This document shows, in pieces, positions 47,141 to 47,394 of a stretch of 64,000 nucleotides of DNA. Numbering within the stretch: the first letter of the stretch is position 1; every line of letters begins with the position of its first letter. The DNA is taken from assembly GCA_041483895.1 (NCBI GenBank), contig JBGPGO010000007.1:14304-78303 (forward strand), read 5' to 3'. Source of the DNA: Fimbriimonadia bacterium (GTDB lineage Bacteria > Armatimonadota > Fimbriimonadia > Fimbriimonadales > JABRVX01). The position numbers were made by a program, and so were the translations under genes. The notes below the pieces were generated by a model. The model had not been told where the DNA came from. It did no database searches and worked only from the letters and a program-made list of their open reading frames with translations.

Positions 47141-47394
47141 GCGTGTCAAAATGAGTGTCAAGCGGTCGAAATTGCAGGTTGAAAGGTTACGTCAGAAGGT
47201 TACAATTAGCTTCAAAAACGGCTGGCTCCTCGGGTAGGACTCGAACCTACGACCCGCTGATTAACAGATGCGAGGACCGCCGTCCATTACGCGACACTTA
47301 CGTCCGATTAGCGCACATACGTCCGCGACATCGTTCCGTTATGTATCCATAAGTCCGTAGGCGTCCATTACAAAGCGTGTCAAATTGGTGTCAA
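47141..47394 (-). mobile_element. attP-like recombination region: TTGACAC module - core (tRNA-Asn 3' half) - TTGACAC module
   Basis: Read on the minus strand: TTGACAC-CAAT-TTGACACGCTTTG (47394-47371), 103 nt, the 45-nt core (47267-47223), 61 nt, then TTGACAC-TCATT-TTGACACGC (47161-47141). Confidence 0.65.
47223..47267 (-). repeat. perfect 45-nt copy of the 3' half of tRNA-Asn (anticodon loop to CCA), inverted relative to the intact gene
   Basis: The reverse complement CTGTTAATCAGCGGGTCGTAGGTTCGAGTCCTACCCGAGGAGCCA equals 19835-19879 exactly. The flanking bases differ on both sides. Confidence 0.95.

What the first reader, a model, noticed from the sequence alone, without database searches (positions are those of the whole stretch)
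47141..47394. attP-like structure: inverted perfect copy of the tRNA-Asn 3' half flanked on both sides by TTGACAC repeat modules
The segment 47223-47267 (minus strand) is identical over 45 nt to tRNA-Asn 19835-19879. Identity stops exactly at both ends.

On the minus strand the core is flanked by two repeat modules.
- Upstream by 103 nt: TTGACAC-CAAT-TTGACACGCTTTG.
- Downstream by 61 nt: TTGACAC-TCATT-TTGACACGC.

The intact tRNA has the same module once, 58 nt downstream (19938-19962, TTGACAC-CTTTT-TTGACACGCTTTG). A 14-mer, TTTGACACGCTTTG, is shared exactly.

A core with arm-type repeats on both sides is the P-O-P' layout of an attP site, or of the junction between two tandemly integrated elements. 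The sequences between core and modules are unrelated at the two loci. That suggests two different elements using the same integrase specificity.

No second integrase gene follows the 47-kb copy.
Basis: partly seen in the sequence, partly recalled or inferred. Interest (0 to 1): 0.75.

Follow-up and report, generated by a model that had tools for sequence, protein, structure and literature searches.

The report
Orphan attP-type site for tRNA-Asn integrase
The flagged 250 bases are a complete phage-style attachment site (attP): a copy of the tRNA-Asn 3' part with paired integrase-binding repeats on both sides, probably left by a second mobile element that lost its integrase, so a well-built but ordinary genomic-island feature.

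Summary
The 45-nt core at 47223-47267 (-) equals tRNA-Asn 19835-19879. TTGACAC-N4/5-TTGACAC modules occur only three times in 64 kb (0 expected), and all three flank these cores.

Comparison shows what it is. The neighbouring integrase (20148-21335) is a three-domain, lambda/L5/Giles-type tyrosine integrase. In its relatives, including mycobacteriophage Giles (34% identity), attP is a tRNA 3' fragment flanked by two pairs of direct repeats of period 11-12.
- Giles: TTGACCC pairs, 127 nt before and 58 nt after the T-arm, 221 nt apart.
- 47-kb site: TTGACAC pairs, 126 and 72 nt, 233 nt apart.

So the site is an attP-type P-O-P' structure and the TTGACAC pairs are arm-type integrase sites.

It is not a tRNA gene. 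An independent contig confirms the partner tRNA-side junction, but none crosses the 47-kb site. It is not a plain attR either: it is inverted and has element-type arms on both sides. No integrase lies next to it, and its neighbours are gene wrecks.

Most likely it is a relic of a second element with the same att specificity. Either it is that element's unrecombined attP, or it is a hybrid junction from tandem accretion that was later inverted. It is a new member of a known kind, of modest interest. The adjacent array of Xer-type palindromes is the less ordinary feature.

The parts
19804..19879 (+). Intact tRNA-Asn(GTT). Its last 45 nt (19835-19879, anticodon loop to CCA) are the common core of the attL-type site S1.
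   Evidence: ARAGORN. Exact 45-mer match. An independent metagenome contig, L001, spans this junction at 99.96% identity.
19938..19962 (+). P' arm module of the integrase-bearing element: TTGACAC-CTTTT-TTGACACGCTTTG, period 12, 58 nt after the tRNA 3' end. It is followed by TTTTCCGAG x2 at 19973-19990.
   Evidence: Integrated relatives have a module at the same position, 57-71 nt from the tRNA 3' end.
20148..21335 (+). Tyrosine integrase, 395 aa, three domains: an N-terminal beta3-alpha domain (residues ~11-59), a SAM-like core-binding domain and a catalytic domain. R208, K246, H321, R324, H347 and Y357 are all present.
   Evidence: Pfam PF14659 + PF00589. Family alignment invariants. AlphaFold model, pLDDT 85.8. 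Foldseek hits to Tn1549 Int and full-length lambda Int. 34% identity to Giles gp29 over 385 columns, about 42% in the N-domain.
47371..47394 (-). P arm module of the 47-kb site: TTGACAC-CAAT-TTGACACGCTTTG, period 11, 103 nt upstream of the core. The extended arm block is 47348-47410.
47281..47368 (-). Five GGAC(G/T) direct repeats between the P module and the core, with first bases at 47366, 47356, 47324, 47305 and 47285. They are candidate accessory-protein (Xis/RDF-type) sites; this is an inference.
   Evidence: Together with the three repeats on the P' side there are 8 copies on this strand in 47101-47400. That is the maximum of the whole window, against a mean of 0.73 per 300 nt.
47223..47267 (-). 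45-nt common core, identical to the tRNA-Asn sequence from the anticodon loop to CCA. It is not a tRNA gene.
   Evidence: No tRNA by ARAGORN. No Rfam tRNA match at E<=1.
47141..47161 (-). P' arm module of the 47-kb site: TTGACAC-TCATT-TTGACACGC, period 12, 61 nt downstream of the core. The extended arm block is 47114-47178, with three further GGAC(G/T) copies at 47132, 47122 and 47103.
46451..46606 (-). C-terminal ~50 codons of a type I specificity subunit (HsdS) at the end of a junk ORF (46451-47161). The hsdM gene and the rest of hsdS are missing, so a breakpoint lies next to the P' arm.
   Evidence: PADLOC Specificity_I hits only to residues ~186-235, matching the extreme C-terminus of the profiles. 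No Pfam or NCBIfam hit for the rest.
41818..44784 (-). Intact-looking hsdR (type I restriction subunit) with no methylase partner in the window. It is part of the decayed cargo on the P' side.
   Evidence: Pfam. PADLOC REase_I, 1071 bits.
47448..47471 (.). Xer-type palindrome TATCGATAA-TGGACG-TTATCGACA, 54 nt beyond the P module and 7 nt from the end of the SIR2-like ORF at 47479. It is one of six such sites in the window.
   Evidence: 0 expected by chance.

Best explanation
47114-47410 is an attP-type attachment site (P arm, 45-bp tRNA-Asn common core, P' arm) for a heterobivalent tyrosine integrase of the mycobacteriophage L5/Giles kind.

Proposed mechanism (inferred from the family, not assayed here):
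- The catalytic and core-binding domains of the integrase act at the anticodon-loop end of the core, which is the left boundary of the identity.
- The small N-terminal domain binds the TTGACAC pairs on both arms, bridging arms and core into an intasome.
- The GGAC(G/T) repeats are probably sites for an accessory or directionality protein.

The integrase encoded beside the intact tRNA-Asn (20148-21335) has a P' arm with the same TTGACAC pair at the same distance. It should therefore recognise the 47-kb site in trans.

The 47-kb site itself is an orphan.
- It lies 27.3 kb away in inverted orientation.
- It has no integrase next to it.
- It borders truncated genes.

I read it as a relic of a second integrative element with the same att specificity. 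Two histories fit.
- Slightly favoured: it is that element's own unrecombined attP, brought into the chromosome with surrounding plasmid-like modules.
- Alternatively: it is a hybrid P(element 1)-O-P'(element 2) junction from tandem accretion at tRNA-Asn, later inverted.

If the resident integrase is active, the expected reaction between the two inverted sites is inversion of 19880-47222, not excision.
For: Shown:
- Exact 45-nt core, starting at the anticodon loop.
- Three TTGACAC pairs only, all flanking the cores, with 0 expected.
- Family layout. In 43 of 81 relative loci, a direct-repeat pair of period 10-13 (mostly 11-12) lies within 450 nt of the integrase gene.
- In at least 7 IMG/VR contigs, two such pairs 194-251 nt apart flank a tRNA 3' fragment. 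The P pair ends 114-133 nt before the T-arm and the P' pair starts 45-83 nt after it.
- The window values are 126, 72 and 233 nt, with periods 11 and 12.
- L049 uses a tRNA-Asn fragment.
- Giles, whose int/attP is used in integration vectors (PMC13104609), has TTTGACCCC x2 on both sides of a tRNA-Pro fragment, with values 127, 58 and 221 nt.
- The motifs differ by one base, TTGACCC against TTGACAC. The N-domains are about 42% identical.
- Cluster J mycobacteriophages are described with a 44-bp tRNA core from the anticodon loop, flanked by pairs of arm-type sites (PMC3706429).
- The integrase has the extra N-terminal beta3-alpha domain and aligns over its full length with three-domain lambda Int.
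- A tRNA-Asn 3' fragment followed by a TTGACAC pair after 71-72 nt recurs in Aminicenantes contigs.
- The two arms at 47 kb share about 17 further positions.
- Orphan status: no family integrase within the neighbourhood, an HsdS fragment, and hsdR without hsdM.
- The tRNA-side junction is confirmed by an independent contig.
Against: - No binding or recombination data exist.
- No close relative of this integrase (the best are 73% and 62%) showed TTGACAC or a tRNA on its short contig. The link between this integrase and this motif therefore rests on position, on the Giles parallel and on the family pattern.
- Pfam does not recognise the N-terminal domain by sequence.
- No third copy of the core exists in 64 kb, so neither element has a recognisable attR. 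The history cannot be reconstructed.
- The P arm shares TTTGACACGCTTTG with the tRNA-side P' arm, which fits the hybrid-junction version. It shares more with the 47-kb P' arm, which fits the intact-attP version.
- No independent contig crossing the 47-kb site was found.
Confidence: 0.75

Rival explanations
1. Hybrid junction from tandem accretion. An older element sat at tRNA-Asn (tRNA-O-P'b...). The integrase-bearing element then integrated into the reconstituted tRNA. This created an internal site P(new)-O-P'(old), and a later inversion reversed it. This is a sub-variant of the best explanation and differs only in history.
For: - Accretion with decay of the older element to an integrase-less CIME is well documented (PMC5704250).
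- The P arm at 47 kb shares the exact 14-mer TTTGACACGCTTTG with the P' arm next to the integrase.
- The integrase-bearing element otherwise has no attR in the window.
- The P' side of the 47-kb site carries decayed cargo without an integrase.
- The 47-kb site lies within a region bounded by ~1-kb inverted repeats (36010-37007 and 52203-53213, 85-86% identical) and by palindromic recombinase sites that could mediate inversion.
Against: - The orientation is inverted, so an additional event is required.
- There is no third site (P-O-B') in the window.
- The two arms at 47 kb resemble each other more than either resembles the tRNA-side arm.
- Contigs from two other samples are collinear across the 52222 and 55337 palindromes, giving no sign of rearrangement.
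- The flank of the 36965 palindrome matches that of its paralogues (52 kb, L097). This argues against a crossover there.
Confidence: 0.3
2. Plain attR (P-O-B') of the island that starts at tRNA-Asn. On this reading the downstream TTGACAC pair is host sequence present by chance.
For: It is the only other copy of the core in the window, and the island next to the tRNA needs a right end.
Against: - The site is inverted relative to attL, whereas attL and attR of one element are direct repeats.
- The downstream pair is not chance: 0 are expected in 64 kb.
- That pair sits at the family-typical P' distance and is embedded in a ~60-nt block similar to the P arm.
Confidence: 0.03
3. The TTGACAC pairs are not integrase sites. 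They are promoter -35 elements, or operators or iterons for another DNA-binding protein, that happen to sit near tRNA-derived sequence.
For: - TTGACA is the sigma-70 -35 consensus.
- Tandem TTGACACGCTTTG repeats occur in unrelated AT-rich phage contigs, and TGACAC repeats occur next to a terminase region (L005-L009).
Against: - None of the pairs has a -10 hexamer at promoter spacing.
- All three pairs in the window sit at defined distances from the tRNA core.
- Pairs of repeats with the same geometry but different, integrase-specific sequences flank the attP cores of dozens of relatives, and Giles has an almost identical motif.
Confidence: 0.05
4. Assembly artefact. The 45-nt inverted repeat caused a false join, and the real genome has a different arrangement, or a second tRNA-Asn gene.
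For: The window comes from a metagenome contig. Contig L002 from another sample begins 13 nt after the core.
Against: - Contig L001 from an independent sample runs from 1.25 kb upstream of the core to 1.5 kb downstream at the tRNA locus, identical in arrangement. This fixes the partner junction as well.
- The sequence upstream of the 47-kb core is not tRNA-like.
- The arms form a coherent, family-typical structure, which a chimera would not produce.
Confidence: 0.03

Closest known systems
attP of mycobacteriophage tyrosine integrases (Giles gp29/attP; also L5 and Cluster J phages)
   Same: - Three-domain integrase, 34% identical to Giles Int and about 42% in the N-terminal domain.
- The core is the 3' part of a tRNA gene starting in the anticodon loop, 44-45 bp (PMC3706429).
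- One pair of direct arm-type repeats lies on each side.
- The geometry is almost identical: Giles 127, 58 and 221 nt against the window's 126, 72 and 233 nt.
- The motif is almost identical: TTGACCC against TTGACAC.
   Different: - The target is tRNA-Asn rather than tRNA-Pro, Gly or Leu.
- The host is an uncultivated Armatimonadota-like bacterium, judged from 55% best hits.
- The site sits in a chromosome-like contig without an adjacent integrase or excisionase gene and is inverted relative to the occupied tRNA.
- The integrase gene at the tRNA points away from the tRNA, whereas in most relatives its 3' end faces the att site.
Lambda attP (P-O-P' with arm-type sites P1, P2, P'1-3 and accessory IHF/Xis/Fis sites)
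   Same: - The logic is the same: a heterobivalent integrase, arm-type sites on both arms distinct from the core sites, and extra repeated motifs that could hold accessory proteins.
- The integrase model aligns with full-length lambda Int over 381-395 columns.
   Different: - Sequence relationship is very distant (E about 0.005 by sequence).
- The core is a long tRNA-derived identity block rather than 15 bp.
- The arm sites are symmetric pairs rather than a 2 + 3 arrangement.
Internal att sites of tandem (accreted) integrative elements and CIMEs, e.g. ICESt1/ICESt3-type accretion and IME tandems at tRNA genes
   Same: - An integrase-less, decayed element lies next to an integrase-bearing one with the same att specificity.
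- An att site has element DNA on both sides (PMC5704250).
   Different: - Accretion gives direct repeats and a third site at the far end.
- Here the site is inverted and no third copy is present in 44 kb downstream of the tRNA.
Self-contained Xer modules (XerS/difSL type) and pdif modules of Acinetobacter plasmids. These are comparators for the neighbouring palindromes, not for the att site.
   Same: - 11-6-11-type palindromes occur, one directly upstream of each recombinase gene.
- Further solitary copies delimit gene modules (PMC6449649).
   Different: - The array has its own dedicated recombinase paralogues.
- The context is chromosomal.
- Modules are 3-6 kb and carry defence-type genes.
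- Site orientation cannot be assigned.
- No rearrangement was seen between samples.

Membership tests
attP of heterobivalent (lambda/L5/Giles-type) tyrosine integrases | A common core identical to the integration target, here the tRNA 3' part from the anticodon loop to the 3' end. | tested here: met
   45/45 identity with tRNA-Asn 19835-19879, stopping at both ends.
attP of heterobivalent (lambda/L5/Giles-type) tyrosine integrases | Arm-type repeats, unrelated to the core sequence, on both sides of the core. | tested here: met
   TTGACAC pairs at 47377-47394 and 47143-47161. Only 3 pairs exist in the window and 0 are expected.
attP of heterobivalent (lambda/L5/Giles-type) tyrosine integrases | Geometry matching the attP of characterised or bona fide relatives. 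| tested here: met
   Window values are 126, 72 and 233 nt with periods 11 and 12. Seven viral-contig attPs give 114-133, 45-83 and 194-251 nt. Giles gives 127, 58 and 221 nt.
attP of heterobivalent (lambda/L5/Giles-type) tyrosine integrases | A cognate integrase with an N-terminal arm-binding domain. | tested here: met
   The integrase at 20148-21335 has a beta3-alpha N-domain (pLDDT 85-90) and a full-length structural match to lambda Int. Its N-domain is conserved with Giles Int. It is encoded 26 kb away, not at the site. Pfam does not detect the domain by sequence.
attP of heterobivalent (lambda/L5/Giles-type) tyrosine integrases | An integrase gene, and usually an excisionase gene, adjacent to attP on the same element. 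| tested here: not met
   There is no tblastn match to the integrase near 47 kb. There is no convincing excisionase homologue in the window.
attP of heterobivalent (lambda/L5/Giles-type) tyrosine integrases | The integrase binds the arm sites and recombines the site with attB. | not testable with these tools
   This needs EMSA or footprinting and an in vivo integration assay.
attR (P-O-B') of the island integrated at tRNA-Asn | A direct repeat of the core relative to attL, with host DNA on the distal side. | tested here: not met
   The core is on the opposite strand. The distal side carries a P'-type module.
Internal junction of tandemly accreted elements | Three cores in direct orientation (attL, internal site, attR) with element DNA on both sides of the internal site. 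| tested here: not met
   Only two cores are present and they are inverted. Element-type arms on both sides are present, so the junction reading survives only with an added inversion and loss of the third site.
tRNA gene (second tRNA-Asn) | A full cloverleaf, including acceptor 5' strand, D-arm and anticodon-stem 5' strand. | tested here: not met
   ARAGORN finds no tRNA at 47 kb. Rfam gives no tRNA match at E<=1 in 46800-47800. The upstream sequence is unrelated to the tRNA.

The most novel reading that the evidence does not exclude
The site may not be a dead relic but a working partner of the resident integrase. There are two versions of this reading.

(a) tRNA-Asn attL and the inverted attP-type site form an integrase-driven switch that inverts the 27.3-kb segment 19880-47222. 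Each flip keeps the tRNA intact and swaps which cargo, and which P' arm, lies behind it.

(b) The att site is cargo of a module in a Xer-type palindrome array (six sites, two dedicated recombinase genes, defence-type genes). That would be an integron-like or pdif-like cassette system in Armatimonadota that has captured a complete attachment site of a second recombination system.
Probability: 0.1. Interest if true: 0.65.

Novelty: new member of a known kind. Interest (0 to 1): 0.32.

Why it matters
- It gives a clean, sequence-level definition of the attachment site (core, arm-type motif, spacing) for a tRNA-Asn-specific integrase in an uncultivated lineage.
- It shows that the Giles/L5-type attP geometry, and even the arm motif (TTGAC[A/C]C), is conserved far outside actinobacteriophages.
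- That geometry is a usable rule for finding attP and att relics of this integrase family in metagenomes: two pairs of 11-12-nt-period repeats about 200-250 nt apart around a tRNA 3' fragment.
- For this genome, it marks the 20-47 kb region as a mosaic of at least two mobile elements rather than one island.
- It predicts inversion, not excision, as the reaction available to the resident integrase.
- It does not reveal a new mechanism.

Tried and rejected
- **Empty-site comparison.** Homologues of the flanking acyltransferase are at most 55% identical (Armatimonadota MAGs) and show no synteny. The island boundaries therefore could not be set.
- **Closest integrase homologues.** The contigs of the closest homologues (73% and 62% identity; L004, L003) contain no tRNA and no TTGACAC.
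- **Whole-collection scans for the core 3' end plus TTGACAC.**
  - Genome and metagenome collections returned only Aminicenantes loci and not the source contig.
  - Viral scans for the module returned unrelated phage repeats: AT-rich iterons and a terminase-proximal array.
  - Viral scans for the T-arm plus a TTGACAC pair and for the extended arm found nothing.
  - The core scan found only a jumbo-phage tRNA-Asn gene.
- **Integrase remnant next to the 47-kb site.** None was found. My first tblastn used a wrong frame and is void.
- **DUF2779-like fragment.** I thought the middle of ORF 46451-47161 resembled a DUF2779 N-terminus. Pfam gives no hit, so the claim is dropped.
- **Pfam arm-binding families on the N-terminal 78 residues.** No match. 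The domain is supported by structure prediction only.
- **Excisionase search.** Searches with Giles gp30 and two HTH_17 proteins gave nothing convincing.
- **Reconstruction by inversion between palindromes 36965 and 47448.** This would place the site as a direct-repeat attR next to the 36-kb recombinase gene. It is attractive, but it is not supported.
  - The outer flank of the 36965 site is conserved with its paralogues.
  - The orientation of the near-perfect palindromes cannot be assigned.
  - Other samples show the same order at two of the sites.
- **Look-ups of window proteins near 47 kb in other assemblies.** These found no record.

Full report
**1. Observation**

The window holds one tRNA gene, tRNA-Asn(GTT) at 19804-19879 (+). 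Its last 45 nt (19835-19879) recur exactly once, on the opposite strand at 47223-47267. No further copy appears even with three mismatches.

- Identity begins at the first base of the anticodon loop (CTGTTAA) and ends at the CCA. The flanks are unrelated.
- The double module TTGACAC-N3-7-TTGACAC occurs three times in 64 kb, and in none of 100 shuffles.
- One copy lies 58 nt after the tRNA (19938-19956). The other two lie 103 nt before and 61 nt after the 47-kb core, on the tRNA-sense strand (47377-47394 and 47143-47161).
- Single TTGACAC heptamers are not enriched: 9 found against 6.7 expected.
- The shared 14-mer TTTGACACGCTTTG is real.

**2. What the site is not**

- It is not a second tRNA gene. 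ARAGORN and Rfam find nothing there.
- An assembly chimera is unlikely but not directly excluded. An independent contig from another sample (L001) crosses the partner junction at the tRNA with the same arrangement. No independent contig crossing the 47-kb site itself was found.
- It is not a plain attR. It is inverted relative to the tRNA and has an element-type module on its distal side.
- The TTGACAC pairs are not predicted promoters, because no -10 hexamer lies at the right spacing.

**3. The integrase**

The gene at 20148-21335 encodes a 395-aa tyrosine recombinase (PF14659 + PF00589) with all catalytic residues.

- By sequence it is nearest to Tn1549 Int among solved structures. Its residues 69-220 align with lambda Int 74-224, which leaves an extra N-terminal ~65 residues.
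- An AlphaFold model (pLDDT 85.8) folds residues 11-59 as three beta strands plus a helix. That is the fold type of arm-binding domains; this comparison rests on my own knowledge of lambda and Tn916 Int.
- Foldseek aligns the model over 381-395 columns with full-length three-domain lambda Int.
- Pfam does not see the N-domain by sequence.
- Among phage records, the best annotated matches include mycobacteriophage Giles gp29 and its near-identical relatives (34% identity). The N-domain is about 42% identical. An unannotated contig and two Thermus phages score slightly higher in identity (about 35%).

**4. The family's attP**

I fetched 80 IMG/VR loci encoding relatives with 29-47% identity.

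- In 43 of 81 loci (80 IMG/VR loci plus L098), an exact direct-repeat pair of period 10-13 (mostly 11-12) lies within 450 nt of the integrase gene.
- In integrated examples, a single pair lies 57-71 nt from the 3' end of a full tRNA (L018, L044, L050). This mirrors the 58 nt at the window's tRNA.
- In at least seven contigs, two copies of the pair flank a tRNA 3' fragment that is not a tRNA gene. These are L017 (Lys-like), L049 (Asn), L058, L080, L083 and L090/L094.
- Measured in tRNA sense, the upstream pair ends 114-133 nt before the T-arm. The downstream pair starts 45-83 nt after it. Start-to-start distance is 194-251 nt.
- The 47-kb site gives 126, 72 and 233 nt, with periods 11 and 12.

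Giles, whose int/attP cassette is used in integration vectors (PMC13104609), shows the same picture directly downstream of gp29. TTTGACCCC x2 lies on both sides of a tRNA-Pro fragment, with values 127, 58 and 221 nt. Its motif, TTGACCC, differs from TTGACAC by one base.

Cluster J mycobacteriophages are described with a 44-bp tRNA core starting in the anticodon loop and flanked by pairs of arm-type sites (PMC3706429).

The 47-kb structure is therefore an attP-type P-O-P' site of this family, and the TTGACAC pairs are its arm-type integrase sites. The layout is shown. Binding is inferred.

**5. Extra detail of the site**

- The two arms at 47 kb are similar over about 60 nt. Both read CCTGC..GAC.G-TTGACAC-N4/5-TTGACACGC-N6-ATGGACGC-N3-CGGACTT-N-TG, at 47348-47410 and 47114-47178.
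- GGAC(G/T) occurs eight times on the tRNA-sense strand in 47101-47400. That is the highest density in the window, against a mean of 0.73 per 300 nt.
- Five of these copies lie between the P pair and the core. That is the position where directionality-factor sites lie in L5, according to my own knowledge, so this reading is an inference.
- The tRNA-side P' arm instead has TTTTCCGAG x2 after its pair.
- A tRNA-Asn 3' fragment followed after 71-72 nt by a TTGACAC pair also occurs in Aminicenantes contigs, again without an integrase nearby. This shows that the core-plus-pair association is not peculiar to this genome.

**6. Context and history**

- On the P' side come about 230 nt of non-coding DNA, then the last ~50 codons of an hsdS gene at the end of a junk ORF. 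After these lie a 317-aa ORF, a PIN-like ORF and an intact hsdR. There is no hsdM.
- On the P side, 54 nt away, lies a 24-nt palindrome (47448-47471), followed by the 3' end of a frameshifted SIR2-like gene.
- No integrase of the family and no excisionase is nearby.
- The site is thus an orphan in a mosaic of wrecked defence genes.

Three arms carry TTGACAC pairs: P'a with the integrase, and P and P'b at 47 kb. No P-O-B' site exists in the window. Two histories fit.

- (i) P and P'b are the intact attP of a second element that entered by another route. This is supported by their extended mutual similarity and by the arbitrary orientation.
- (ii) P belongs to the integrase-bearing element and P'b to an older one, as a tandem accretion junction (PMC5704250). 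This is supported by the 14-mer shared by P and P'a and by the missing attR. It needs a later inversion and loss of the third site.

I could not decide between them.

- Relatives are too distant for an empty-site comparison.
- The collections did not contain the source contig or close variants.
- An inversion between palindromes 36965 and 47448 would neatly restore a direct-repeat island. It is not supported by the site flanks or by other samples.

**7. Function now**

The resident integrase is intact and shares core and arm motif with the orphan site. Recombination between the two inverted sites would invert 19880-47222 and keep the tRNA intact. This is a prediction only. The one junction seen in other samples has the same arrangement as the window.

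**8. Comparison and verdict**

- The site works like, and meets the sequence-level criteria of, an attP of the L5/Giles-type integrase family.
- The criterion not met is an adjacent integrase gene.
- The organism is an uncultivated Armatimonadota-like bacterium, judged from 55% best hits.
- This is a new member of a known kind.
- Interest is modest. The main value is the conserved attP geometry and near-identical arm motif across phyla, plus the unusual retention of a complete attP-type site in a chromosome.
- The adjacent array of Xer-type palindromes, with two dedicated recombinase genes and defence-type modules, is the more unusual feature. It is recorded under things noticed in passing.

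Noticed in passing
window 36965-36988, 41398-41421, 47448-47471, 52222-52245, 55337-55360, 59601-59624; genes 36011-36946 (-) and 52265-53212 (+): Six copies of a 24-nt palindrome, TATCGAWAA-N6-TWWTCGAYA, all lie within 36.9-59.6 kb (0 expected by chance). 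Two sit 14-19 nt upstream of 90%-identical Xer-like tyrosine recombinase genes that form ~1-kb inverted repeats. The sites delimit 3-6 kb modules. The modules carry: a cyclase-NB-ARC gene plus TPR ORFs; hsdR/PIN/hsdS remnant plus the att site; SIR2-like plus a malectin protein; the recombinase plus a 641-aa ORF; and metabolic genes. This resembles XerS/difSL-type units with extra solitary sites, or pdif modules. Other samples are collinear across two of the sites.
   Followed up: partly
L097; L098 1-300; L106 2780-2812; plasmid hits H16-H30: The Xer-like recombinase family is small, with 79 hits. A third 85-87% copy with the same palindrome sits in a different flank (L097). A Fimbriimonadia homologue has an analogous palindrome (GGTCACGATAA-TGGTCA-TTTGCGTGACC) upstream, and lies at the end of an element that carries a Giles-type integrase followed by CTTGGCTGTCA x2. 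The Leptolyngbya PCC 7376 homologue has AGCTTACGGAAA-CTATCA-TTATCGTAAGCT upstream and a divergent NB-ARC/TPR gene. Relatives of 41-46% identity sit on many cyanobacterial plasmids.
   Followed up: partly
L010 2774-2932, L012 (same locus), L011 (reverse strand, about 1480-1660): Aminicenantes contigs carry an orphan tRNA-Asn 3' fragment downstream of tRNA-Pro/tRNA-Arg. The anticodon is mutated in L011. A TTGACAC pair follows after 71-72 nt, and there is no integrase within 5 kb. L011 has a different pair (TGGCAAA x2, period 11) about 100 nt upstream, as expected of a hybrid junction of two elements.
   Followed up: partly
window 41818-47161: A type I restriction system is reduced to an intact-looking hsdR, a PIN-like ORF, an unknown 317-aa ORF and the last ~50 codons of hsdS. 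No hsdM is present in the window.
   Followed up: partly
window 47479-48509 (-): A SIR2-like defence gene appears frameshifted. The N-terminal part of the domain matches ORF 47748-48509 and the C-terminal part matches overlapping ORF 47479-48021 in another frame.
   Followed up: partly
window 37109-41206 (-): An adenylate/guanylate-cyclase + NB-ARC (STAND) ORF is followed without gaps by two TPR ORFs that are partly duplicated (77% over 125 nt, spacing 1307). This may be one defence-type STAND gene split into three, or a tandem duplication.
   Followed up: no
window 21196-32455: Directly after the integrase come an RHS-repeat fragment (21606-22016) and four large ORFs of 448-1044 aa with no family match. 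They lie in a stretch of raised G+C (0.60-0.64 against about 0.57).
   Followed up: no
L111 (Giles) 2690-2720 and 1380-1420: Giles has CGGACG-type repeats next to its int-proximal arm pair and in the xis-int intergenic region, and GCGGAT x3 between the distal pair and the core. The window's att site has GGAC(G/T) x8. This is possibly a shared accessory-site theme, but the orientation differs.
   Followed up: no
window 9640-9826: Two 88-nt direct repeats, 89% identical and 99 nt apart, lie in a region with overlapping ORFs.
   Followed up: no
L098-L103, first 220-290 nt: All assemblies carrying the Fimbriimonadia Xer-like gene break within the same ~70-nt stretch upstream of it. This suggests a repeat or a variable junction there.
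   Followed up: no
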